Origin: Escherichia phage KEP4
Sequence record: PP047754
Strand: one strand, 5' to 3'
Length of the DNA: 64,000 nucleotides
The first letter of the stretch is position 1. Each line of letters opens with the position of its first letter. The position numbers and the translations under genes are program-made. The notes beneath the pieces are model-generated. The model saw only the letters and a list, made by a program, of their open reading frames with translations. It was not told where the DNA came from and ran no database searches. This document shows, in pieces, positions 34,989-50,562 of the stretch.

Positions 34989-35016
34989 AAACCCCGCTTC
35001 GGCGGGGTTTTTCTTT
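34989..35016 (+). terminator. rho-independent terminator (aaaccccgc-ttcg-gcggggttt + TTTTCTTT)
   Basis: 9-bp stem, ttcg loop, U-tract after the capsid gene. Confidence 0.9.
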
Positions 35017-35104
35017 ATAGGGATTCACTATAAGACCGCTAATAGTTTTCAATAAATGGGCAATGAACGATCATTACCCAACTTTCACAATAGGAATACA
35101 ACTC

Positions 35105-35299
35105 ATGGCAAAAGAAACTCTTAACAATGAAAACTCCAACTTTGCAGAATGGCATACCGAATTAGAGCGCGTTGCCCGTTCTCAACATGGTTCTGCCGCT
35201 GATGCAGATGCTTGGCGTGAAGATTATGAATCTGGAAAAACTCCACGTCAGGCTTGGGAAGACGAATGGGGGTGGGATGATGCCGACTCTAATCCGTAA
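35105..35299 (+). CDS. hypothetical acidic small protein (64 aa)
   Basis: ATG 35105 with AGGA SD; Trp/Asp/Glu-rich; track start 35063 is an alternative. Confidence 0.45.
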   Translation: MAKETLNNENSNFAEWHTELERVARSQHGSAADADAWREDYESGKTPRQAWEDEWGWDDADSNP

Positions 35300-35510
35300 G
35301 ATATATCTGGATAAGAACTATTTGGAATCTAAAATCGAAGTTTTCACGGCTCAAAAAATATTTGAAGACGGTGAAACGAGATATTATCTGAATCCAGACC
35401 TTTATCTCCCAGGAAGTAATTTGAATCGCGACATATCCCAAATAGATGGCACAATCATTCGTTGGGAAATAGCGACGCAAGAAGACAACTGTCACAACAT
35501 AACACTTTGA
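35277..35510 (+). CDS. hypothetical small protein (77 aa)
   Basis: ATG 35277 after GGGGGTGGG; overlaps upstream stop. Confidence 0.4.
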   Translation: MMPTLIRKIYLDKNYLESKIEVFTAQKIFEDGETRYYLNPDLYLPGSNLNRDISQIDGTIIRWEIATQEDNCHNITL

Positions 35511-35525
35511 AGAGAGAACTACATC

Positions 35526-35972
35526 ATGTCTAAACAAAATTATATCTTTATTAGTCCAGGACGTTCCCAGTTTTTTCGTAGCGACATCGATACACCTATC
35601 GAAGGTTTTCGCATTTTCAAATGCTATAAATTGGCCAGCGGTGACATTGATTATCAAAGTCACGACAATGACCGCCAAGACTTGGTTGATAACGGTTGGG
35701 AAGAAATAGATTCTCCTCAATATCTGACCGTCAACCTTTATTATATGAAGGAAAGCGGTAAATATTATTCGACTGGGGAGTTGAAAATCCGAGTTTCAGA
35801 AGCCCAATCCAATCCAGCAAAAAGTTGGTATGACACGCAAGAGTTAGTGCGTGATCTCCTGAAGAAAGGCGAACTGCCTGGCTTGGTTAAAGGTTCCCGT
35901 TTTGATACCTTCATGTCCTGTGAACAACACCCGTGCTATGTTCCGACTTTATTTAAAATCAGCAACATATGA
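35526..35972 (+). CDS. hypothetical protein (148 aa)
   Basis: ORF only; weak SD. Confidence 0.5.
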   Translation: MSKQNYIFISPGRSQFFRSDIDTPIEGFRIFKCYKLASGDIDYQSHDNDRQDLVDNGWEEIDSPQYLTVNLYYMKESGKYYSTGELKIRVSEAQSNPAKSWYDTQELVRDLLKKGELPGLVKGSRFDTFMSCEQHPCYVPTLFKISNI

Positions 35973-35983
35973 GAGATTAATAT

Positions 35984-36358
35984 ATGAGCAATTTACCACT
36001 GCTTCAAGTCGGCGATGTGTTCGTTCTCACAGAAGAAATGACCATTGAAACTCAGGTGCCTAAACATTTCTTGTATTCTAATTGCAAGGGAGATTGGCAA
36101 ACGGACTCTGGTTATATCACCCCTGAGGGATTCTTCGGTTACATGCAAGGGCATTATGTCGTTACCAAAACAGCTCTACAAGGAGGTAGCGCTGGTCACG
36201 ACCCATACCCAGACGGTCATCATGTTTGGGCACAGCATACCGAAAATGAACGCATCAGGATCTGTTTTTATCAGACAGGCAGCTTCAGAAACATGCACCG
36301 TAACGTTCCAGTAGTCGGAAAAGCCAAGGCGCAAACATGGACTTGGGAGAAATTATGA
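35984..36358 (+). CDS. hypothetical protein (124 aa)
   Basis: GAGAGA SD 7 nt upstream. Confidence 0.5.
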   Translation: MSNLPLLQVGDVFVLTEEMTIETQVPKHFLYSNCKGDWQTDSGYITPEGFFGYMQGHYVVTKTALQGGSAGHDPYPDGHHVWAQHTENERIRICFYQTGSFRNMHRNVPVVGKAKAQTWTWEKL

Positions 36359-36591
36359 GAATCAAAAAGATTGGAGCAAGCCCGTTGACGGGCACTATCT
36401 TCCAAGGTACATTGAATACCAAAACCAGTATGTGGGTAGGTGAGAAGACCGACGTGACTAACGACTGTGTAGCGGCTACGGCTGAACACATGCGCCACAT
36501 CAAGAAAGACTACTGCTTCCCTACTAAAGACGGCAAGTTTCTGGTGCTGAGCGCTGAGGTTCACGACACTCTTCCTGATCGCTTCAAATAA
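36355..36591 (+). CDS. hypothetical protein (78 aa)
   Basis: ATGA overlap with upstream stop (translational coupling). Confidence 0.45.
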   Translation: MRIKKIGASPLTGTIFQGTLNTKTSMWVGEKTDVTNDCVAATAEHMRHIKKDYCFPTKDGKFLVLSAEVHDTLPDRFK

Positions 36592-36610
36592 ATTTAAAAT
36601 TTATTCAATA

Positions 36611-36640
36611 AACGGGGTTTACTTCTTCAATAAACCCCGT
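36611..36640 (+). promoter_or_regulatory. hairpin aacggggttta-cttcttcaa-taaaccccgt
   Basis: 10-bp stem; contains the 15-mer ggggtttacttcttc also present at 55264-55278. Confidence 0.4.
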
Positions 36641-36694
36641 ATACTTCATTCCATAAGCAGCACAACACTGACTCTGAAATGAAGGAACTACATC

Positions 36695-37159
36695 ATGACA
36701 ACCGTAAAAATCTCCGTCTGGGCATTCAACAATTTCACCAAATTTGACGCGTTTGTTAAAAACGCTCTGGGCATCACCAACATAGAATCTTTCACTTCTT
36801 ATGACCGCGAAGATCAGGTCAAAATGCTTCGTCCTGAAATCGACCTTGATGCAATGCTGAACGCCATCAAGAATCACGATGACAATCTGGCTGAATTCGA
36901 AAACCTCCGCACCTCTATCTTCAAAAAGAATGGTGGCATCCGTAAGCTGAGCAACAAAACCATCAAATATGTCACCGAAGGGTTCTTTGTGGTGTTCGAC
37001 TTCATAGAAACCAAGCCGAACGAACTTCGTAAAGATTTAGACGGCAACGTTATCACCCTGAAAATGTTTGGCGAAGCCAAGGCCGATATGATGCGTGACG
37101 GCCTGTGTGATGAGACATTCACATACGACGAATATTGCGATCAGTGCCAAGATCTGTAA
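36695..37159 (+). CDS. hypothetical protein (154 aa)
   Basis: AAGGA SD 8 nt upstream. Confidence 0.5.
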   Translation: MTTVKISVWAFNNFTKFDAFVKNALGITNIESFTSYDREDQVKMLRPEIDLDAMLNAIKNHDDNLAEFENLRTSIFKKNGGIRKLSNKTIKYVTEGFFVVFDFIETKPNELRKDLDGNVITLKMFGEAKADMMRDGLCDETFTYDEYCDQCQDL

Positions 37160-37180
37160 TTTGTTCTAAACCATTTGAAC

Positions 37181-37201
37181 GGGTATGTTAAAATCATACC
37201 C
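37181..37201 (+). promoter_or_regulatory. hairpin gggtatg-ttaaaat-cataccc in the 5' leader of ORF 37228
   Basis: 7-bp perfect inverted repeat 27 nt upstream of the start. Confidence 0.4.
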
Positions 37202-37227
37202 AACCCCTACAAATAGAGGACTATAAC

Positions 37228-37545
37228 ATGGCTTGTAAAACACCAGAAATGAAATTAGTTGTTTCGTCAAAGGGGCGTCGCAGCCGCAGTCGAAATCTCA
37301 TCACCCGTTTAGATATTCTACGTCAAAAATATCAAGGTCACAGCGTGTTCACACGCATCCGTAACGCATTAAAGGAAGGGCGAATCGAGTTGGAGCTATA
37401 TCGTCCAAACGGTTCGACTCGTGCGTATCAGACCACCGACGGTTTGCTGGAACTGATCCGCCTCTCGGGAATGAGCATAGAACCTCGTTCATCAGGGACT
37501 CCCTTGTGCAGCCTGTATGTAATCGGCAATCTTGGGGCGCTGTGA
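37228..37545 (+). CDS. hypothetical basic protein (105 aa)
   Basis: AGAGGA SD; Arg-rich N-terminus (KGRRSRSRNLITR). Confidence 0.5.
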   Translation: MACKTPEMKLVVSSKGRRSRSRNLITRLDILRQKYQGHSVFTRIRNALKEGRIELELYRPNGSTRAYQTTDGLLELIRLSGMSIEPRSSGTPLCSLYVIGNLGAL

Positions 37546-37550
37546 GTTCT

Positions 37551-37973
37551 ATGAAGAAGTATATCGTTCTTATAACGGGTTCCCGTTCTATAACTGAGCG
37601 GGATAAAATCTTCGCCAAACTGGATGAACTGTTAGATCCCCACGAGATCGAAACTTTTATAGAAGGTGAAGCGGTTGGTGTGGACTTGATATCTCGTGAT
37701 TGGTGTGAAATCAATTATGTTCATGTTACACCAATGGAGATCCCTAAGAATTATCACACGATATATGGGAAAGGCGCAGGAAACCAACGTAACAAAGATA
37801 TGTTAGACAAAGCTACAACCCTGGCCAAACAAAAAGGTCTTGAGGTCTTTGGAATTGCATTATGGGATGGTTCGTCTACTGGGACGCAAGACATGATTAC
37901 CCGCATGAAAAAAGCAGGTGTCAATGTCAATATCACTCTCATGGGCAAACCCAAAACCAAACGATTGTTATAA
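37551..37973 (+). CDS. SLOG-type (DprA/LOG-like, DUF2493-like) Rossmann-fold protein, tentative
   Basis: KKYIVLITGSRS...EGEAVGVDLISRDWC pattern; 140 aa; track start 37506 is GTG. Confidence 0.4.
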   Translation: MKKYIVLITGSRSITERDKIFAKLDELLDPHEIETFIEGEAVGVDLISRDWCEINYVHVTPMEIPKNYHTIYGKGAGNQRNKDMLDKATTLAKQKGLEVFGIALWDGSSTGTQDMITRMKKAGVNVNITLMGKPKTKRLL

Positions 37974-38007
37974 ATATGTTTGCCTTCACACCCATATGGA
38001 GTTAGCT

Positions 38008-38178
38008 ATGCTGCAATTAATTTTGATTCTTTGTGTCGCTTTTACCATGTACTTTCTGGCGCGAATCAGTTATATCACACTAAATGATCTGAAAGATACA
38101 CCACGCGAACCTAAATTTATATTTCTAAAGAAATACACCAAAAAGTTCTGCGAGAATTTTATCTATCATCTTCCGTGA
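38008..38178 (+). CDS. small membrane protein (56 aa, one TM helix)
   Basis: GGAG SD 6 nt before ATG 38008; LQLILILCVAFTMYFLARISYI hydrophobic segment. Confidence 0.4.
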   Translation: MLQLILILCVAFTMYFLARISYITLNDLKDTPREPKFIFLKKYTKKFCENFIYHLP

Positions 38179-38179
38179 T

Positions 38180-38207
38180 TATAAATACCCCCAAAATTGG
38201 GGGTATT
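38180..38207 (+). promoter_or_regulatory. exact T4-type late promoter TATAAATA (38180-38187) fused to hairpin aataccccc-aaaatt-gggggtatt
   Basis: 9-bp perfect stem 38184-38192 / 38199-38207; GGGGG 6 nt before ATG 38210. Confidence 0.65.
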
Positions 38208-38209
38208 TT

Positions 38210-38938
38210 ATGAACGCACAAATCTACGATGTCCTTTCCTCTGGTAATGCATTTAGCAACCCGCTTCCGTCCCTCTCCGGTCCCTCACAGGATTTAATCA
38301 CCAGTGGTAGTACCAATATACCATTGATAACTGCCAACGCGACTCCGGAGATGCAGGCGGCTATGGTTGCTGGTGGACTAACACCAGAAAAACTCACAGC
38401 AGCCACCACCATGTATAGCGCCGCCAACACGGGGATAACGACACTGAACACATATGGAGACCAAAGTATCAATGACGCGTATTCTCGCATCGGTACTTCC
38501 GTGTCATACAAATCAGGTCTGAAGGGTATATCACGAGAGCCAAACAATTGTGATTTGATCAACAAGGCTTTTGGTGTTGTTCAGGATTTAGGACGCCAAT
38601 GGCTGAATGCTATGGAAGGTGCTCTACAGACCGTAACAAACAAGATATCGGAATTGTATGACATGATTATGGAAGGTGCCTCAGAAGGGATGGCAAAACT
38701 ACAGCAATTGGCTGCTGAAGTAACAGGACATATCAATGAGGCAATAACCGCCGTCAATGGAGTTATAAACGATATCACCGATGGGATAGCTGCAGAACTT
38801 GCTCATATTGAAAGTATGATCAAAGAATGTCTAAACTTCTCTTTTGCGAATGTTCTTGGAGAATGGGCTAAAGATCTCTGTGCTGGAGGCGTTATTGATA
38901 AAATAGGGACTCCAGAATTAAAAGAGTCCCTGAAATAA
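38210..38938 (+). CDS. hypothetical late protein (242 aa), likely virion-associated
   Basis: driven by late-promoter/hairpin element; Ala/Thr-rich N-terminus, alpha-helical C-terminus. Confidence 0.55.
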   Translation: MNAQIYDVLSSGNAFSNPLPSLSGPSQDLITSGSTNIPLITANATPEMQAAMVAGGLTPEKLTAATTMYSAANTGITTLNTYGDQSINDAYSRIGTSVSYKSGLKGISREPNNCDLINKAFGVVQDLGRQWLNAMEGALQTVTNKISELYDMIMEGASEGMAKLQQLAAEVTGHINEAITAVNGVINDITDGIAAELAHIESMIKECLNFSFANVLGEWAKDLCAGGVIDKIGTPELKESLK

Positions 38939-39592
38939 TCAATGTCTAGCGGGGAGAACTCCCACTGGTTCGATACCTTCCATCACCAGGGAGTTCACCC
39001 CAACATCACTCATTCGAATCCATACTTTACCGCCTGGTCTTATTTCATAGATGTTCATTTCATTACCCACAGCAGATCCATTAACGAAAACACCCTGAGT
39101 GGCAATTCGGATCGGAGATTTGGTGTTATTAACTATCTGAAATGATATTGCAACGTCTCTGGTGATTTCTACGTCCCTTGCTTGAGTATTCCTTCTGAGT
39201 TTGTCAAAGAAAGAAGGGTTGAAAGTCGCTATGATGCTATTATTCTGAGAGTAATAAATACTTGCGGATAGATATGGGATCTTTCCTTCGTCACCTTTCC
39301 TCAATAGGGGAATCGTGGTTTTCCAGTATGGTCTCAGTGACTGGTTGTTATCATCAAAACAACCAACAGCTTGAAGAGTCTGGAAGTTCTGAAAATCAGA
39401 TACTACTTGATTCAGAATATTTTTATTGCATTTATCAATGTCGGCTGAGATGTTAACAGGTATGGTTCTGATTTCAGGATCCCAGAGGTCGGTTACAGAA
39501 ATGACGGACGTGACAAAGATACGGCAACTTGTGAGTGCAAGCACCATTATCATCGTCATGATCCATTTTCTGAATCCGCGTATCAGGAACAC
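38939..39592 (-). CDS. putative lipoprotein on the opposite strand (217 aa from GTG 39592; 206 aa from ATG 39559)
   Basis: GTG 39592 with GGAG 9 nt upstream; n-region RGFRKW, h-region IMTMIMVLALTS, lipobox LTSC; abuts the stop of ORF 38210. Confidence 0.5.
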   Translation of the reverse strand: MFLIRGFRKWIMTMIMVLALTSCRIFVTSVISVTDLWDPEIRTIPVNISADIDKCNKNILNQVVSDFQNFQTLQAVGCFDDNNQSLRPYWKTTIPLLRKGDEGKIPYLSASIYYSQNNSIIATFNPSFFDKLRRNTQARDVEITRDVAISFQIVNNTKSPIRIATQGVFVNGSAVGNEMNIYEIRPGGKVWIRMSDVGVNSLVMEGIEPVGVLPARH

Positions 39593-39622
39593 TAAAACGT
39601 TCTCCACAGCAAAGGTGCTAAC

Positions 39623-40117
39623 ATGACAGGTGTACAATTCAAAAACGAAAATCCTAATTTCGCGGCTTCCGATAAATGGCGCTTAACTATCGGAGACCTA
39701 ATATTGCTTACTCGTTCAATACATGACTTCAGTATTCCTGGAGTGTATTCTGAAGGTATCGAGGGACCATCCCCTGGCGATGTGCTCAACTCCATACCTT
39801 CAGAACGTCTCACGTATGACCCCATCGTATTTACGTTCGTTATCGATGAGAGTTGGTACAACTGGGAACAGATTTACAATTGGATTGCGTCCAATGCTGG
39901 ATCTGATTTAGCTGTTAGCCGTGACATCACCATCGACCTTCTTGATAACATGAATCGACCTGTTGGTCTACAATTGTTGTTGGAAGAAGCCCGTCCCACA
40001 GCTTTGGACAACGTATTGGTGGATGTGGATGCTGCGGTTCCCCAACTGGTCACGACTGTCACGTTCAAATATTTGAAACTGACTCCGACTCGCGTCACCC
40101 GCGAAATTGATAAATAA
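39623..40117 (+). CDS. hypothetical protein (164 aa)
   Basis: ORF only. Confidence 0.5.
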   Translation: MTGVQFKNENPNFAASDKWRLTIGDLILLTRSIHDFSIPGVYSEGIEGPSPGDVLNSIPSERLTYDPIVFTFVIDESWYNWEQIYNWIASNAGSDLAVSRDITIDLLDNMNRPVGLQLLLEEARPTALDNVLVDVDAAVPQLVTTVTFKYLKLTPTRVTREIDK

Positions 40118-40158
40118 TAAGTTATAATACAGAGAGTTGAAACAGCAGGGAATAAATC

Positions 40159-40614
40159 ATGAGCGAAACAAAACTTGAAACGATGAAAACCGAAGATATA
40201 ATGGCAGAATTGGAGCCTCTTATTTCGGTAAATCCTGAAGACATGAACTTAGACCAAATGTCATTGAAAATTGGTCGTTCGTGGATGACTGTGCAACGCC
40301 ATTATATTCGTGAAGGAAGATATCTGGAGTATCTAACTGGCAAATTCCGCCAAATAGATCTCTATTTACGCCGATTTTATGCAGGGGAATTGCCGCCCAA
40401 CGTTTATGTTGAACGCCCATTAAAAGTTCGACCCCTGAAATCTGATATAGATGTTTGGGTAAAAGCAGATGATGATTATATCGAATTGTCTAGCATGCTT
40501 CAAGAGCAGAAAGCCAAAGTCAAGTTTATCGAAAGTTGCTTAGATCGTTTGAACAAACTCGGATATGAAGTGAAGAATGCTATTGATTGGCGAAAATATT
40601 TGGATGGGATGTAA
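40159..40614 (+). CDS. uvsY: recombination mediator UvsY-like protein, tentative
   Basis: 151 aa; C-terminal CLDRLNKLGYEVKNAIDWRKY resembles T4 UvsY ALDAIKSRGFAIKHIQDMRAF; sits upstream of uvsW. Confidence 0.4.
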   Translation: MSETKLETMKTEDIMAELEPLISVNPEDMNLDQMSLKIGRSWMTVQRHYIREGRYLEYLTGKFRQIDLYLRRFYAGELPPNVYVERPLKVRPLKSDIDVWVKADDDYIELSSMLQEQKAKVKFIESCLDRLNKLGYEVKNAIDWRKYLDGM

Positions 40615-43599: not shown

Positions 43600-44268
43600 A
43601 TGCAAGAGATCACTCTCTCCGAACGCACTTTACAACTGCTGGCTAACTTTGAAACCATCTGCCCCTCTATCGTTCTGGCACCTGGTAAAAAGTTGCGCAC
43701 TGTTAACGATTCCAGTACAGTTATCGCTATTGCCGACATTGACGAAGACTTCCCGTTCGAATTCCCGATTCTGGATCTGACCAAATTGCTGGCAATCCAG
43801 CGTCTGCCGAGTTTTAAAGGCGGTAAAATTGAAATGTCGGAAGACCACATTTTGCTGAAAGGTGAAAACTCCCAACTGCAATTCTGGCGTTCCGCTAAAG
43901 AACTGACTGTCGTTCCGGCAGACAGCATCGATCTCCCGTCTGTAGAATTTGAAGCAACAGTCACTCCTGAAAAAATGAAAGAGCTGACCCGCGCATGTTC
44001 TACTCTGGGCCACAAAACTGTACGCCTGGTTGCCAGCGGCGGTAAAACTCGTCTGGTGGGCACGACCACTACTATCGACAATTCCAACGATTACACTGTT
44101 GAGTTGGGTGAAACAACTCTGGGTGATTTTGCTATGCCTGTTGATGTGGTCAACCTGAAAATGATCGAAGGCAACTACGTGATCCGCGCCTGTGCCGAAA
44201 TGCAACTGGTTAACTTCCAATCCGCAGACGGCACCATCAACTATTACGTCGGCATGCAGCTGGATTAA
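43600..44268 (+). CDS. sliding clamp (T4 gp45-like)
   Basis: 222 aa; N-terminus TLQLLANFETICPSIVLAPG parallels T4 gp45 TTALLKNFATINSGIMLKSG; GAGGA SD; precedes clamp-loader genes. Confidence 0.8.
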   Translation: MQEITLSERTLQLLANFETICPSIVLAPGKKLRTVNDSSTVIAIADIDEDFPFEFPILDLTKLLAIQRLPSFKGGKIEMSEDHILLKGENSQLQFWRSAKELTVVPADSIDLPSVEFEATVTPEKMKELTRACSTLGHKTVRLVASGGKTRLVGTTTTIDNSNDYTVELGETTLGDFAMPVDVVNLKMIEGNYVIRACAEMQLVNFQSADGTINYYVGMQLD

Positions 44269-47206: not shown

Positions 47207-48433
47207 ATGAAAGATAAACCGTGTGACATTCCTTATTGCGGTGTTCGGGAAGCTAAAATTAAATCTGCACATCCCATGTTAAGCCCATTCCATAAACAAC
47301 TCGCATACGAATGGATGAGCGAGCGCTATAAGATCCACGTGAGAAAGGACGTCCAGCGTCTTCCTGCTCCTTGGACGGATAATCCCATACTACGGCAGGT
47401 CAAGTTCTGTAACGTCCGGAGAGAGCACGACAGGCAGTCTCTTAACCTGATCAATAATATCGTCAAGAACGACGCTCTGAGCATGGCCGACAAAATGTTC
47501 AACTGTGTTCTGTTCCGCATGTTCAATCTCTGGGATCCGATCAAGGTGGCGCTCGAGGGCGCTATGACGATTTCAGACTTTGCTAAAATCAACCTGGACG
47601 AGACCCGCGCCCGTCTTCAGAAGTTTGAATCTGAAGGTGGTAAGATCTTCACCAACGCATTCAACACAGGCGGTCTAAAACAATGTCTGGCGTTCCCCGA
47701 ACTTGTTGTCAACCACAAGGAGCAGCGCTTCGGTGGCATGATGGTTAAGGTACACCGTGTTGGCCAGGGTGTCGTGGATGAATTGGATTACAAGGTCGCC
47801 AAGAAGCTGGTTGAAGAGAATCCTGGGGAGTACACCATTGAGGGTTGGGAGCCGTACATGCCAATGCGTGTCATCCGCTCTTTGAAGGCATTCGTCAACA
47901 AGTACCCCGATTACTTCAATGATCTTTTACGTCTTGACTCTCCGCTGAAAGTTTACCAGCGCATGTATGATGACATTGAAGGGCTTGGGCCATTCCTGGC
48001 ATATCAGATCTGGGTGGACTTCACATACATCCCTGAGTATCCATTCAGTGAGAATCATTTCACTATTGCTGGTCCAGGTTGCCGTGCGGGTATTGACCTG
48101 ATGTTCCTGGATAAGGACGGCATGACTCATGAAGAATGCATATTCTGGGTTCGTGATCATCAGTATCAATTGTTTGCTCAGTATGGTTATGTCCAAGAGC
48201 AGTTCTGGTCAGCCGAAGCGCCGGAAGATCAGTGCATGAACGTCATGCAGCTGGAGAACATGTTCTGTGAATTGAGCAAGTACACCCGCTGTGTTGAGGC
48301 TATCGAGAGAGGGGAAAAGCCACGCGGCAAGGTCGGTTATGATGGAGGCGGGAGATACAAAAATCGATGCGATGAAATTGTCCTCAATCGCGGATCGGTC
48401 AATTTATTAGATCGTTTGAAGAAACCTGAATAA
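47207..48433 (+). CDS. hypothetical protein (408 aa); speculative DNA/nucleotide-modification enzyme
   Basis: GAGAGG SD; Cys/His-rich N-terminus (CDIPYCG, KFCNVRREHD); no Walker motif; function not assignable by eye. Confidence 0.55.
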   Translation: MKDKPCDIPYCGVREAKIKSAHPMLSPFHKQLAYEWMSERYKIHVRKDVQRLPAPWTDNPILRQVKFCNVRREHDRQSLNLINNIVKNDALSMADKMFNCVLFRMFNLWDPIKVALEGAMTISDFAKINLDETRARLQKFESEGGKIFTNAFNTGGLKQCLAFPELVVNHKEQRFGGMMVKVHRVGQGVVDELDYKVAKKLVEENPGEYTIEGWEPYMPMRVIRSLKAFVNKYPDYFNDLLRLDSPLKVYQRMYDDIEGLGPFLAYQIWVDFTYIPEYPFSENHFTIAGPGCRAGIDLMFLDKDGMTHEECIFWVRDHQYQLFAQYGYVQEQFWSAEAPEDQCMNVMQLENMFCELSKYTRCVEAIERGEKPRGKVGYDGGGRYKNRCDEIVLNRGSVNLLDRLKKPE

Positions 48434-48546
48434 AGAATCGCGTTACTTCGTTCTTCAATAACTTTTTCAACGTATATATTGACCTCACTTTAACGACGCG
48501 CCCCGATAAGGGCGCTCACTTTGAACTGAAACAGGAAGACTATACC

Positions 48547-50562
48547 ATGGCAGAATTCAAACCCTTCGCAACGGCAGTTAATAACAACGTGCTGGCGATG
48601 TCCGCAACTGGTCTGTTCATGACCAATATCGATAAAGATGCTCTTTGGGATCTGTATCTGGCATCTTTCCCTGCTGGTACCAACCCGCTCTACCGTGAGC
48701 GTACTGAGCACGACTGCACCTGCTGTAAACAATTCATCCGTAACATCGGCGGTGTGGTCACCATCGACTCCGACCTGAACGTAATTTCTATCTGGGACAA
48801 CATTGATCTGGGTAATGAATATGACGTGGTGGCTGCGGCTCTTTCCGCGTATGTCAAACAACACGCAATCGTCGATGTTTATTTTAACGATTCTGCCAAA
48901 GTCGGCCTGTCTCACAATCACGAAATGAAAGACGGCAATGTCCGCACCTACAACCACTTCCACACCGACCTGCTGGGTAGCTATGTTCTGCGTCCGGACG
49001 CAATCGCTTCGAAAAAAGGTGAAATCCGCCAGGCTATTGAATTGTTTGAACGCGGTCTGCGTGAAATTACTCTGGAATCAGCTGAAATCGTTCTGGAACT
49101 GATTGACCAGAATTCTCTGTATCGCGGCGCAGAACACAAAGCAGCAGTGAAGGGATTTGTTGAAACCAAAAAGGCATATGAACAAATCCCCGAATCAGCC
49201 CGTTCTCTGTGGGCATGGCATACTGGATACCGTTCAAACAATCATGTTCCACACGGCATCCGTAACACAGTTATCGGCACTCTGCTGACAGATATCAGCG
49301 AAGGCGTGGAACTGGAAAAGGCTGTTAAATCGTTTGAATCCAAAGTTGCTCCGGCGAACTACAAACGTCCGACAGCGCTGGTTTCAAAATCCATGATCGA
49401 AAACGCTCAGAAAGAAGTTATTGCTCTGGGTTTGGAAGACTCACTGGCGCGTCGTTATGCGGTTTATGATGATCTGACAATCAACAACGTTCTGTTCGCA
49501 GATCTGGCTGCTCAGAAAGCGATGGATCCGTTTGCTCAGCTGGCTGCCGAAGTGAAAACTCCGACCAAGTCCCTGGAAAAAGTTGAAGAGATCAGCGTTG
49601 ATGATTTCCTGAGCAATGTTCTGCCAAAAGCGCATTCAATGGAAGTGCTTGTAGAGAATTCTCATACTAGCAACCTGATGTCCCTGGTTGCTCCGGCGAA
49701 CCCAGATGCGCCTAACCTGTTCAAGTGGAACAACGGTTTCTCCTGGTCTTACAACGGTGAAGTGACCGATTCCATTAAAGAACGTGTAAAGGCTGCTGGC
49801 GGTAAAGTTGACGGGTATCTGCGCGTTTCCTTGGCGTGGCACAATAACGACGACCTCGATCTGCATATGTTCAACAACATGGAGCACGTTTACTTCCGCG
49901 ATCGCCGCTCTATGACAGGTGCCCATCTGGATATCGATATGAACGGTATGGATGGTATTGATCCAAACCGCGCTCCGGTGGAAAATATCATCTTTACAGA
50001 TGAAAGCAAGCTGCGCGATGGTGAATACCGTTTCGAAATCCACAACTACAATCAACGTGAAAAAATCGACGAAGGGTTTGAAGTCGAAGTAGAATACAAA
50101 GGCGCAACGCATCGTTTCAGCCATCCTGGCCTGAAAGATCAGGGACGTATCACCGCAGTCATCTTGACTGTTAAAGACAAACAAGTTGTTGGCATTAAGT
50201 CCGAACTGGCTAATGTTGATAAGTCTAAAGAAGTTTGGGGTATCAAGACAGCGACCTTCCAGAAAGTACAGCTGGTCCTGAACTCACCAAACCATTGGGA
50301 TGGCGAGCAGACAGGCAACAAGCACGTGTTCTTCATCCTGGAAGGTTGTGCTAATCCTGAAGGTACTCGTGGTTTCTACAACGAATATCTGAAGCCAGAA
50401 CTGGATAAACATCGTAAGGTTTTTGAAATGTTGGGTAGTAAAATGAAAGTCCAGCCGAATGAAAACCAACTGTCCGGTCTGGGATTCTCGACGACGCAAC
50501 GCAACCATGTGTTCGTCAAAGTGTCCGGCGCGTTTAACCGTACTGTAAAAGTCATTTTCTAA
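48547..50562 (+). CDS. hypothetical large protein (671 aa)
   Basis: AGGAAG SD 8 nt upstream; TEHDCTCCKQF motif; no recognisable catalytic signature. Confidence 0.6.
   Translation: MAEFKPFATAVNNNVLAMSATGLFMTNIDKDALWDLYLASFPAGTNPLYRERTEHDCTCCKQFIRNIGGVVTIDSDLNVISIWDNIDLGNEYDVVAAALSAYVKQHAIVDVYFNDSAKVGLSHNHEMKDGNVRTYNHFHTDLLGSYVLRPDAIASKKGEIRQAIELFERGLREITLESAEIVLELIDQNSLYRGAEHKAAVKGFVETKKAYEQIPESARSLWAWHTGYRSNNHVPHGIRNTVIGTLLTDISEGVELEKAVKSFESKVAPANYKRPTALVSKSMIENAQKEVIALGLEDSLARRYAVYDDLTINNVLFADLAAQKAMDPFAQLAAEVKTPTKSLEKVEEISVDDFLSNVLPKAHSMEVLVENSHTSNLMSLVAPANPDAPNLFKWNNGFSWSYNGEVTDSIKERVKAAGGKVDGYLRVSLAWHNNDDLDLHMFNNMEHVYFRDRRSMTGAHLDIDMNGMDGIDPNRAPVENIIFTDESKLRDGEYRFEIHNYNQREKIDEGFEVEVEYKGATHRFSHPGLKDQGRITAVILTVKDKQVVGIKSELANVDKSKEVWGIKTATFQKVQLVLNSPNHWDGEQTGNKHVFFILEGCANPEGTRGFYNEYLKPELDKHRKVFEMLGSKMKVQPNENQLSGLGFSTTQRNHVFVKVSGAFNRTVKVIF

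What the first reader, a model, noticed from the sequence alone, without database searches (positions are those of the whole stretch)
37551..37973. SLOG/DUF2493-like nucleotide-binding protein in the small-ORF island
The ITGSRS and GEAVGVD...RDW pattern is reminiscent of the DprA/LOG-like Rossmann family often found in phage and conflict systems, where it may process nucleotide signals or DNA ends. It lies within an 11-gene island of unknowns between the capsid gene and uvsY (35063-40117).
Basis: inference. Interest (0 to 1): 0.4.

Follow-up and report, generated by a model that had tools for sequence, protein, structure and literature searches.

The report
DprA-like phage protein with clamp-type tail
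This small phage gene really does encode a DprA/LOG-type (SLOG, ex-DUF2493) nucleotide-binding fold, an already catalogued but untested family, and its invariant tail copies the tail that another protein of the same phage probably uses to dock on the DNA sliding clamp.

Summary
The ORF at 37551-37973 (+, 140 aa) is real. The window is a Kuttervirus (Ackermannviridae) genome. The protein passes Pfam's threshold for YAcAr (PF10686, formerly DUF2493). Its AlphaFold model is confident (pLDDT 93.7), and DprA structures are the best PDB matches.

It keeps DprA's G-S-R loop and R-N helix, which hold a flipped-out ssDNA base in H. pylori DprA. It lacks the catalytic Glu of LOG enzymes and every GTPase motif, so the database label "GTP-binding domain" has no support.

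One point is new. The last 11 residues (LMGKPKTKRLL) are better conserved than the domain. They match the C-terminal tail of the phage's own gp33 (…LKSKKLI), which in T4 is the sliding-clamp-binding motif. In a Vibrio Ackermannvirus, gp33 and the DNA polymerase share this tail type.

My best reading (about 0.4) is a base- or nucleotide-binding module tethered to the gp45 clamp and acting on replicating DNA. The main rival is a soluble ADP-ribose-signal sensor or hydrolase used against host defence.

Interest is modest. Clamp binding is inferred, not shown.

The parts
37551..37973 (+). CDS of the 140-aa YAcAr-family SLOG protein (stop codon included)
   Evidence: ORF and translation. Pfam PF10686 above threshold. 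Orthologue alignment A1. AF2 model with pLDDT 93.7.
37575..37589 (+). T-G-S-R-S loop after strand 1 (residues 9-13). It corresponds to the DprA 'G-S/T/A-R' ssDNA-binding motif.
   Evidence: Invariant in A1. G10 and R12 are >=90% conserved in 94 distant relatives. It aligns on H. pylori DprA G50-T-R52 and on E. coli Smf G-S-R. The motif is defined in PMC3950713.
37665..37685 (+). G-E-A-V-G-V-D (residues 39-45), the GxAxGxD loop/helix after strand 2
   Evidence: G39, G43 and D45 are invariant across the family. It aligns with SGGALGVD of HpDprA and SGLARGID of Smf.
37776..37802 (+). A-G-N-Q-R-N-K-D-M (residues 76-84), the family-wide AGxxRNxxM helix start. R80-N81 correspond to the R-N of DprA motif 2.
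   Evidence: R80 and N81 are invariant in 94 relatives. A weak truncated hhalign places them on Smf R211-N212. HpDprA R143/N144 contact the inserted base (PMC3950713).
37863..37895 (+). W-D-G-S-S-T-G-T-Q-D-M (residues 105-115), counterpart of the LOG 'PGGxGTxxE' loop. Met115 sits where LOG has its catalytic Glu.
   Evidence: Mean column identity 0.925 over residues 103-116. G111 is invariant, S109 and T112 are >=90% conserved in the family. Sequence read directly.
37938..37970 (+). C-terminal tail L-M-G-K-P-K-T-K-R-L-L, a flexible, clade-specific, nearly invariant peptide. It is inferred to be a sliding-clamp-binding motif.
   Evidence: Column identity is 0.92 for the tail against 0.655 for the domain. 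The 131-140 block has pLDDT 60. Relatives outside the clade stop aligning at about residue 128-130. It matches the gp33 tails of Ackermannviridae and the Pol tail of Vibrio phage 1.244.A.
37228..37545 (+). Upstream 105-aa gene (PHROG 4663). It stops 5 nt before the YAcAr ATG and is a conserved neighbour.
   Evidence: Stop/start spacing. The gene sits upstream of YAcAr in Taipeivirus Magnus (35% identity, 4-nt overlap) and in Erwinia phiEa2809 (25% identity). The AF2 model has pLDDT 77, with a disordered basic N-terminus followed by a small alpha/beta domain; there is no significant PDB match.
43600..44268 (+). gp45-type sliding clamp gene (222 aa, acidic). It is the inferred receptor of the tail.
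   Evidence: Annotated as sliding clamp in phage Mutine. ORF and translation. pI 4.7, net charge -11.

Best explanation
The gene encodes a stand-alone YAcAr-family SLOG domain, a trimmed DprA-like Rossmannoid fold of about 130 residues. The domain is followed by a flexible basic-hydrophobic tail of about 10 residues.

The domain keeps the pocket residues that in DprA hold one flipped-out base of single-stranded DNA: the G-S-R loop, GxAxGxD and the R-N helix. It lacks the acid of LOG-type N-glycosidases. It is therefore most likely a binder of a base or nucleotide moiety, not a LOG-like hydrolase.

The tail (K-T-K-R-L-L-COOH) has the same sequence type and position as the tail of the phage's gp33. 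In the T4 paradigm that tail is the motif that docks gp33, gp55 and the DNA polymerase onto the gp45 sliding clamp.

I infer that the protein rides on the phage clamp and acts on newly replicated or recombining DNA. It would be an accessory ssDNA/base-binding factor working with the UvsX/UvsY/Dda-type machinery. By occupying clamp sites it may also compete with gp33 and the polymerase.

Shown here: the ORF, family membership, fold, motif conservation, and tail conservation and its likeness to gp33 and Pol tails.
Inferred: ligand identity, clamp binding and biological role.
For: Family and fold
- Pfam YAcAr above threshold. AF2 pLDDT 93.7. DprA is the top PDB fold match.
- BFVD matches to viral DUF2493/YAcAr proteins with TM 0.7-0.8.
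- A family profile hits HpDprA at E 8.8e-4 and Smf at E 8.9e-4.
- 51 of 94 relatives weakly hit Pfam DNA_processg_A.

Pocket
- G10, R12, G39, A41, G43, D45, R80, N81 and G111 are invariant or >=90% conserved over 94 distant relatives.
- These correspond to the DprA signature motifs that contact dT5 in the HpDprA-ssDNA crystal (PMC3950713).

Tail
- Identity is 0.92 for the tail against 0.655 for the domain. The tail carries +4 charge, the domain -1; the clamp has pI 4.7.
- In the SE14 genome only gp33 and a membrane protein share my tail pattern.
- gp33 is a true T4-gp33 homologue: Pfam PF16805, E 4.6e-19.
- gp33 keeps K[ST][KR][KR][LI]x-COOH in eight Ackermannvirus lineages, even where the body is only 27-36% identical.
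- In Vibrio phage 1.244.A, Pol ends KARKLW and gp33 ends KTRKLF. This mirrors T4, where the gp43, gp33 and gp55 tails are interchangeable clamp-binding motifs (PMC2988020; PMC7892883).
- At the same position, non-Ackermann T4-like polymerases carry the classical TLEDFF-type motif.

DNA-metabolism context elsewhere
- The gene lies directly upstream of dda in a KVP40-like phage.
- It lies near a UvsX-like gene in a Campylobacter phage.
- DUF2493 is fused to a Dda-like SF1B helicase in ICP1 HelB (bioRxiv 671271).
- Neighbours in 72 viral contigs are enriched for 5'-3' exonuclease, ThyA/ThyX, PolA, DnaB and dCMP deaminase.

Other family members carry other clamp-type tails
- P0061 ends …KTSLDMFYE; T4 gp33 ends …NTLDFLL. 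L061 ends …NLEDLF. L049 ends …EQLRLF.
Against:
- The clamp-motif assignment for Ackermannviridae rests on positional homology to T4, whose own motif is acidic-hydrophobic, not basic.
- The Kuttervirus polymerase tail (…HKRRVNLLSMMGKKG) is only loosely similar, and gp55 has no such tail.
- One of the three proteins matching my tail pattern was a membrane protein, so such tails do occur by chance.
- The enrichment of T4-like tails among other family members is weak and post hoc (3/218 against 2/1248, p 0.026).
- The aromatic residue of DprA motif 2 is replaced by an invariant Gly. The RN alignment to Smf is weak (E 0.21).
- The domain is not basic (pI 6.3) and lacks one beta-alpha unit of DprA.
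- The gene sits among unknown small ORFs, not in a replication operon. Its neighbours across phages have no fixed partner.
Confidence: 0.4

Rival explanations
1. A soluble counter-defence protein. The SLOG pocket would bind (as a sponge or sensor) or cleave NAD+/ADP-ribose-derived immune signals such as cADPR isomers. Iyer, Burroughs and Aravind proposed this for viral YpsA-like/YAcAr SLOG domains. On this view the tail is unrelated to the clamp.
For: Published prediction for this very family (PMC7824862; PMC9503650). SLOG domains of ThsA sense gcADPR (literature cited there). Viral SLOG domains are fused to Macro, NADAR or DUF4326 in other viruses (a Marseillevirus phosphatase-SLOG fusion is seen). 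One of 137 neighbouring genes in viral contigs is a Tad3 Thoeris inhibitor. The gene lies in an island of small accessory ORFs.
Against: No experimental support exists for any viral YAcAr protein (one search states they are uncharacterised). There is no PADLOC or NCBIfam hit. The LOG catalytic Glu position is Met115. The closest sequence and fold relative is DprA, not ThsA or LOG. Recurrent neighbours and fusions are DNA-replication proteins and helicases. This view does not explain an invariant tail of gp33 type.
Confidence: 0.25
2. A clamp-occupancy regulator. The protein's main job would be to compete, through its gp33-type tail, with gp33 and the polymerase for gp45. This would time the switch between replication and late transcription. 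The SLOG pocket would act as a nucleotide-level sensor.
For: The tail is the same type as gp33's, and the gp33 clamp-binding motif is essential for T4 late transcription. Two T4-type late-promoter consensus sequences (TATAAATA) lie immediately downstream of the gene. It is a small single-domain protein.
Against: Entirely inferential. Most family members lack such a tail. The Vibrio Ackermannvirus has gp33 and Pol tails of this type but lacks this gene altogether, so any such regulation is dispensable.
Confidence: 0.12
3. A classical DprA-type recombination mediator that coats ssDNA and loads the phage RecA homologue UvsX, independently of the clamp.
For: DprA is the nearest characterised relative. 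Phage annotators call relatives 'DprA-like'. UvsY, an exonuclease and UvsW lie 2-4 kb downstream. A UvsX-like gene lies nearby in a Campylobacter phage.
Against: The protein has 140 aa against a DprA domain of about 205 aa. The region carrying DprA's dimer interface is missing or different (PMC3950713). The domain has net charge -1. The protein itself does not hit Pfam DNA_processg_A. The phage already has UvsY as mediator.
Confidence: 0.1
4. A GTP-binding protein, as annotated in RefSeq and PHROGs.
For: Only the label 'GTP-binding domain' of PHROG_289 and the RefSeq annotation derived from it.
Against: There is no P-loop, NKxD or DxxG motif and no GTPase family hit in Pfam or NCBIfam. The PHROG_289 profile is a 500-column chimera covering three consecutive genes. 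It traces to a merged 475-aa annotation in Salmonella phage 38.
Confidence: 0.01

Closest known systems
YAcAr family (Pfam PF10686, formerly DUF2493) of the SLOG superfamily, YpsA-like clade (Burroughs et al. 2015, as cited in PMC6459960)
   Same: The protein passes the curated Pfam threshold. The full-length profile finds 19,240 relatives of mostly 115-150 aa with the same GSR / GxAxGxD / AGxxRNxxM / WDGxSxGT motifs. UniRef already names the orthologues 'YspA cpYpsA-related SLOG domain-containing protein'.
   Different: This clade adds an invariant K-[ST]-K-R-L-[LIFM] C-terminal tail that is absent from the rest of the family. It has also lost the family's near-invariant Trp at the position of His69.
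DprA/Smf DNA-processing protein A (PF02481; PDB 4ljr, 3uqz)
   Same: Best fold match and the only significant sequence match among solved structures. The G-S/T-R loop, GxAxGxD and R-N residues that form DprA's base-binding pocket are shared.
   Different: It is about 65 residues shorter. It has no SAM or winged-helix accessory domains. The aromatic residue of motif 2 is replaced by Gly. It falls below the Pfam DprA threshold. There is no evidence for DprA's dimer or RecA interfaces.
T4 gp33 / gp55 / gp43 sliding-clamp-binding motifs (SCBM)
   Same: A short flexible C-terminal peptide attached to an unrelated body. The same tail type occurs in the phage's own gp33, and in one lineage in its polymerase.
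   Different: The T4 motif is hydrophobic and acidic (gp33 …NTLDFLL). The Ackermannvirus tails are basic and hydrophobic. Their binding to gp45 has not been demonstrated for any protein.
ICP1 HelB (SF1B Dda-like helicase with C-terminal DUF2493)
   Same: The same domain is attached to a DNA-tracking machine. Here it would be attached non-covalently to the clamp, there covalently to a helicase. The domain is adjacent to dda in a KVP40-like phage.
   Different: A stand-alone protein here. The role of the domain in HelB is also unknown.
LOG cytokinin-activating phosphoribohydrolases (PF03641)
   Same: The same superfamily fold and an equivalent G-x-G-T loop.
   Different: The PGGxGTxxE motif is not kept: Met115 replaces the Glu. 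There is no Pfam hit.

Membership tests
YAcAr / SLOG superfamily (PF10686) | Match to the curated family HMM above its gathering score | tested here: met
   35.1 bits against a cut-off of 28.2, E 1.1e-8. 93 of 94 profile-search relatives also match.
YAcAr / SLOG superfamily (PF10686) | Rossmannoid alpha/beta sandwich with a polar or Gly-rich loop after strand 1, and conserved residues after strand 2 and in the later helix | tested here: met
   The AF2 model shows alternating strands and helices: E4-10, H17-27, E33-38, H44-54, E59-61, H66-95, E98-105, H110-121, E125-130. The conserved motifs sit at these positions. Strand order in the sheet was not inspected.
DprA / Smf (PF02481) | Motif 1 'G-S/T/A-R' in the loop after the first strand (Wang et al., PMC3950713) | tested here: met
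   G10-S11-R12 is invariant and aligns on HpDprA G-T-R and Smf G-S-R.
DprA / Smf (PF02481) | Motif 2 'F/L/Y-x-x-R-N/D' | tested here: inconclusive
   R80-N81 are invariant, but the -3 position is an invariant Gly, not an aromatic or Leu. The alignment to Smf F-P-R-R-N is weak (E 0.21).
DprA / Smf (PF02481) | Match to the DNA_processg_A HMM; a domain of about 205 residues with a dimer interface | tested here: not met
   No PF02481 hit for this protein at E<=1. Relatives hit only below the threshold. The protein has 140 aa with five strands.
DprA / Smf (PF02481) | Binds ssDNA and loads RecA | not testable with these tools
   Needs EMSA or fluorescence anisotropy, and UvsX filament assays.
LOG phosphoribohydrolases (PF03641) | PGGxGTxxE motif with catalytic Glu | tested here: not met
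   The sequence reads D-G-S-S-T-G-T-Q-D-M. The Glu position is Met115, which is invariant in the clade. No Pfam hit.
GTP-binding proteins (database label) | P-loop GxxxxGK[ST], DxxG and NKxD motifs | tested here: not met
   None is present. The label comes from the chimeric PHROG_289.
Sliding-clamp-binding proteins of T4-type phages | A short flexible C-terminal peptide resembling the tails of the same phage's gp33, polymerase or gp55 | tested here: met
   The tail block has pLDDT 60. KTKRLL compares with Kuttervirus gp33 KSKKLI, VP-1 gp33 KTKRIL(K), and Vibrio 1.244.A Pol KARKLW and gp33 KTRKLF. The match to the Kuttervirus Pol tail is only loose, and there is none to gp55.
Sliding-clamp-binding proteins of T4-type phages | Physical binding to the gp45 clamp | not testable with these tools
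Needs a pull-down, ITC or AF-multimer.
ThsA-type SLOG signal sensors / anti-defence sponges | Binding of cADPR-type signals; match to defence-system models | tested here: inconclusive
   No PADLOC hit. Ligand binding is not testable here.

The most novel reading that the evidence does not exclude
Ackermannviridae have replaced the acidic-hydrophobic clamp-binding motif of T4-type phages with a basic-hydrophobic one, [KR]-[STA]-[KR]-[KR]-[LI]-[LIFW]-COOH. A DprA-like SLOG domain has acquired this motif. This would make it the first SLOG/YAcAr protein shown to be a sliding-clamp client that inspects bases or ssDNA behind the fork, for instance in the hypermodified 5-hmdU-derived DNA of these phages. 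Other YAcAr proteins have independently picked up T4-type or beta-clamp-type tails, so clamp tethering would be a recurrent feature of this uncharacterised family.
Probability: 0.3. Interest if true: 0.6.

Novelty: new member of a known kind. Interest (0 to 1): 0.38.

Why it matters
YAcAr/DUF2493 proteins are among the commoner unexplained phage genes. Here they were found in 585 of 50,697 phage records by tblastn and in 19,240 cluster representatives. Iyer et al. report SLOG domains in 19-31% of medium and jumbo phages. No function has been tested for any of them.

If the tail is a clamp-docking peptide, the family gets a concrete and cheap experiment: binding of the tail peptide to gp45. It would also shift the prevailing prediction from soluble ADP-ribose signalling towards DNA-bound action. 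Separately, it would define the clamp-binding motif of Ackermannviridae, which helps find other clamp clients in these therapeutically used phages.

If the tail is not a clamp-docking peptide, the finding is an ordinary member of a catalogued domain family.

Tried and rejected
- Sequence searches of the PDB with the single protein and with the narrow orthologue profile found nothing meaningful. Only the broad profile reached DprA.
- NCBIfam and PADLOC gave no hit.
- A third SE14 protein with a similar tail (gp070, …RTYKRLF) looked like support because it lies 2 kb from the amino-acid:DNA transferase gene. It turned out to be a two-TM membrane protein, so I dropped it.
- BLAST clustering of neighbours in 72 viral contigs found no conserved partner gene. 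Pfam counts on 137 neighbours show only a loose bias towards replication and nucleotide metabolism.
- Ten longer family members showed no informative fused domains.
- Plasmid hits (34 records, all non-mobilizable) gave no support for my recollection that DUF2493 sits in conjugative leading regions.
- The fold of the conserved upstream partner matched nothing significant in the PDB.
- The T4 late-promoter consensus is not enriched in the window (2 found, 2.4 expected), so expression timing could not be assigned.
- No paper was found linking SLOG or DUF2493 to phage sponge proteins.
- The paper that defined the SLOG superfamily (Burroughs et al. 2015) is not held in the library.

Full report
**Origin and observation**

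The window is a Kuttervirus (Ackermannviridae, ViI-like) genome. Positions 35000-40200 are 99.3% identical to Salmonella phage SE14.

The flagged ORF is real: 37551-37973 on the + strand, ATG start, 140 codons, TAA stop. The upstream ORF ends at 37545, five bases before the ATG, and all orthologues start at this Met. The 155-aa GTG version in RefSeq SE14 is therefore an over-extension.

Two details of the stated context need correcting. 39623-40117 is the tail-completion/sheath-stabiliser gene, and uvsY is 40159-40614.

**Family and fold**

- The protein passes Pfam's curated cut-off for YAcAr (PF10686, 'YspA, cpYpsA-related SLOG family', formerly DUF2493): 35.1 bits against 28.2.
- Thirty-three orthologues at 44-98% identity, all from Ackermannvirus-like contigs, keep invariant T-G-S-R, G-x-A-x-G-x-D, G-x-x-R-N and W-D-G-x-S-T-G-T motifs.
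- A profile search of 1.84 billion cluster representatives found 19,240 relatives at E<=1e-3. Most are stand-alone proteins of 115-150 aa.
- Across 94 diverse relatives, G39, G43, D45, R80, N81 and G111 are invariant. G10, R12, A41, A76, G77, M84, S109 and T112 are at least 90% conserved.
- AlphaFold2 gives a confident model (pLDDT 93.7) of alternating strands and helices. Only the last ten residues are uncertain, with a block pLDDT of 60.
- Foldseek against the PDB ranks DprA first (3uqz, 4ljk, 5mll; prob 1.0), then the DprA-like ShosA, with the Moco carrier protein further down.
- Against viral models the best matches are DUF2493/YAcAr and 'DprA-like' proteins, with TM 0.7-0.8.
- By sequence, the 94-member profile hits H. 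pylori DprA at E 8.8e-4 and E. coli Smf at E 8.9e-4. 51 of 94 relatives weakly touch Pfam DNA_processg_A.

**What the motifs say**

Wang et al. (PMC3950713) defined two signatures of the ssDNA-binding DprA domain: G-S/T/A-R and F/L/Y-x-x-R-N/D. Their residues R52, R143 and N144 contact a thymine inserted into a small pocket.

The first signature is fully kept here (G10-S11-R12) and aligns on DprA G50-R52. Of the second, R80-N81 are invariant, but the aromatic position is an invariant Gly. The alignment of this half to Smf is weak.

The loop equivalent to LOG's PGGxGTxxE reads D-G-S-S-T-G-T-Q-D-M, with Met115 at the catalytic Glu position. There is no P-loop, NKxD or DxxG motif.

The RefSeq and PHROG label 'GTP-binding domain' has no basis. 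PHROG_289 is a 500-column chimera covering this gene, the next small TM ORF and the DUF7217 gene. It traces to a merged 475-aa annotation in Salmonella phage 38.

I conclude that the domain is a binder of a base or nucleotide moiety. It is closest to DprA, it is not a LOG-type hydrolase, and it is not a GTPase. It fails DprA membership on size and on the HMM threshold. So it may work like DprA's pocket, but it is not a DprA.

**The tail**

The last 11 residues (LMGKPKTKRLL) are better conserved than the domain. Mean column identity is 0.92 against 0.655, and pairwise identity 0.88 against 0.53. Relatives outside this clade stop aligning at residue 128-130.

I scanned all ORFs of the SE14 genome for a basic cluster followed by two hydrophobic residues at the C-terminus. 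Three proteins matched: this protein, gp33 (…LLKGELKSKKLI) and gp070. gp070 proved to be a membrane protein and was discarded.

gp33 is a true homologue of the T4 late-transcription co-activator (Pfam PF16805, E 4.6e-19). Its tail is kept in eight Ackermannvirus lineages:
- KSKKLI, KSKKIL, KSKKLV (two lineages), RSKKLI
- KTRKLF (two Vibrio phages), KTKRILK

This holds even where the body is only 27-36% identical.

In T4, the C-terminal tails of gp33, gp55 and the polymerase are interchangeable sliding-clamp-binding motifs, and that of gp33 is essential (PMC2988020; PMC7892883). T4 gp33 ends …NTLDFLL.

In Vibrio Ackermannvirus 1.244.A the polymerase ends …KKARKLW and gp33 ends …KTRKLF. This reproduces the T4 pattern with a basic-hydrophobic motif.

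Enterobacterial Ackermannvirus polymerases end …HKRRVNLLSMMGKKG. At exactly the same position, non-Ackermann T4-like polymerases carry …ATLEDFF.

The phage clamp (43600-44268) is strongly acidic, with pI 4.7.

Taken together, the tail is most simply read as the Ackermannvirus version of the clamp-binding motif. This is an inference.

**Wider hints**

A few other family members end in other clamp-type peptides:
- P0061 …KTSLDMFYE, P0050 …TTLDDF and L061 …NLEDLF (T4 type)
- L049 …EQLRLF (bacterial beta-clamp QLxLF type)

The T4-type tails occur in 3/218 family members against 2/1248 neighbouring ORFs (p 0.026). This comparison is post hoc and weak.

Elsewhere the gene lies directly upstream of dda in a KVP40-like phage, near a UvsX-like gene in a Campylobacter phage and beside a DNA polymerase in phage ZCEC13. 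The domain is fused to a Dda-like helicase in ICP1 HelB.

Neighbours within two genes in 72 viral contigs include 5'-3' exonuclease (5), ThyA/ThyX (4), gp23 capsid (4), PolA, DnaB, dCMP deaminase and ResIII helicase (2 each). There is no fixed partner.

**Local context**

A strong terminator follows the capsid gene at 34989-35010. About ten small ORFs follow, and only DUF-type families are recognised among them.

The 105-aa gene immediately upstream (37228-37545) is a conserved neighbour in Taipeivirus, where it overlaps YAcAr by 4 nt, and in Erwinia phage phiEa2809. Its model has pLDDT 77 and shows a disordered basic N-terminus plus a small alpha/beta domain. It has no significant structural match.

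The Vibrio Ackermannvirus lacks the whole island and has no YAcAr gene. The protein is therefore accessory.

**Rivals**

The main rival is the published prediction that viral YAcAr/YpsA-like SLOG domains sense or degrade NAD+/ADP-ribose-derived immune signals. It cannot be excluded. However, it explains neither the DprA-type motifs, nor the DNA-replication neighbourhoods and helicase fusion, nor the gp33-type tail.

A pure clamp-competitor role and a classical UvsX-loading role are less likely variants. The GTPase label is contradicted by the sequence.

**Verdict**

This is a correctly spotted member of a known but experimentally uncharacterised domain family. The one feature beyond the catalogue entry is the clade-specific tail of gp33 type, which suggests that the protein is a sliding-clamp client.

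Confidence:
- Family and fold: about 0.95.
- Base or nucleotide binding without LOG-type catalysis: about 0.6.
- Clamp tethering: about 0.4-0.45.

Interest is modest at 0.38.

Noticed in passing
window 37551-38938; PHROG_289; BFVD A0A0N7CDB8: The PHROG_289 profile ('GTP-binding domain', 500 columns) matches three consecutive genes: YAcAr (columns 20-146), the small TM ORF 37918-38178 (columns 133-207) and DUF7217 at 38210-38938 (columns 259-500). Salmonella phage 38 carries a single 475-aa annotated protein that is 86% identical over the YAcAr part. A merged or frameshifted annotation seems to have created a chimeric family and spread a baseless functional label through RefSeq.
   Followed up: partly
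window 37969-37976 and 38180-38187: The only two exact copies of the T4 late-promoter consensus TATAAATA in the 64-kb window lie 210 bp apart. One overlaps the YAcAr stop codon, about 30 nt upstream of the ATG at 38008. The other is 23 nt upstream of the DUF7217 ATG at 38210. The overall count is not above chance (2 found, 2.4 expected).
   Followed up: partly
SE14 gp33 (L002 816-1058); L005-L011; Vibrio phage 1.244.A Pol (MG592609.1 133401-134480, minus strand): Ackermannviridae gp33 proteins all end in a basic-hydrophobic tail, K[ST][KR][KR][LI]x. In one Vibrio lineage the family-B polymerase has the same tail (KARKLW). T4-like polymerases outside the family end in TLEDFF-type tails at the homologous position. 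This suggests a family-wide change of the sliding-clamp-binding motif.
   Followed up: partly
window 37228-37545: A 105-aa ORF (PHROG 4663) with a variable Arg/Lys-rich N-terminus and a conserved 75-residue alpha/beta domain. It is translationally juxtaposed to YAcAr, and the two genes are kept as a pair across three Ackermannvirus genera. Its fold matched nothing significant in the PDB.
   Followed up: partly
window 43600-44268: An intact 222-aa gp45-type sliding clamp gene. The corresponding stretch of RefSeq SE14 (about 105895-106563) carries no annotation, although the Mutine record annotates the gene.
   Followed up: no
L065 (IMGVR_UViG_3300026488_000015), ORFs ending at 2226, 5992 and 6372: This is a T4-like contig stretch that also encodes gp46/gp47-like proteins and a clamp-loader subunit. 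Three ORFs, including the YAcAr homologue, end in an acidic stretch followed by Trp (…LEDISEEW, …FFTEDEW, …EKDLDEW). This may be another shared docking tail.
   Followed up: no
L062 7661-8887: A phage C-5 cytosine DNA methyltransferase three genes from a YAcAr gene ends in …TSLEEFI, which resembles the T4-type clamp-binding motif.
   Followed up: no
MG592609.1 11241-15093 (L096): Vibrio Ackermannvirus 1.244.A has only a homing-endonuclease-like gene and one small reverse ORF between the capsid gene and the tail-completion/uvsY genes. The whole small-ORF island of enterobacterial Ackermannviruses, including YAcAr, is absent.
   Followed up: yes
P0002 (Escherichia phage PhaxI orthologue), residues about 72-99: This orthologue is otherwise 84% identical, but it has a locally scrambled stretch (…LLWESAGNQRNPRYADNALSWQSKKILRV…) across the R-N helix. 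It looks like a pair of compensating frameshifts or a sequencing error.
   Followed up: no
SE14 48314-49537 minus strand (L002), outside the window: gp075 matches Pfam ADDT (amino acid:DNA transferase, E 1.8e-57). It is presumably the counterpart of the ViI thymidine-hypermodification transferase.
   Followed up: no
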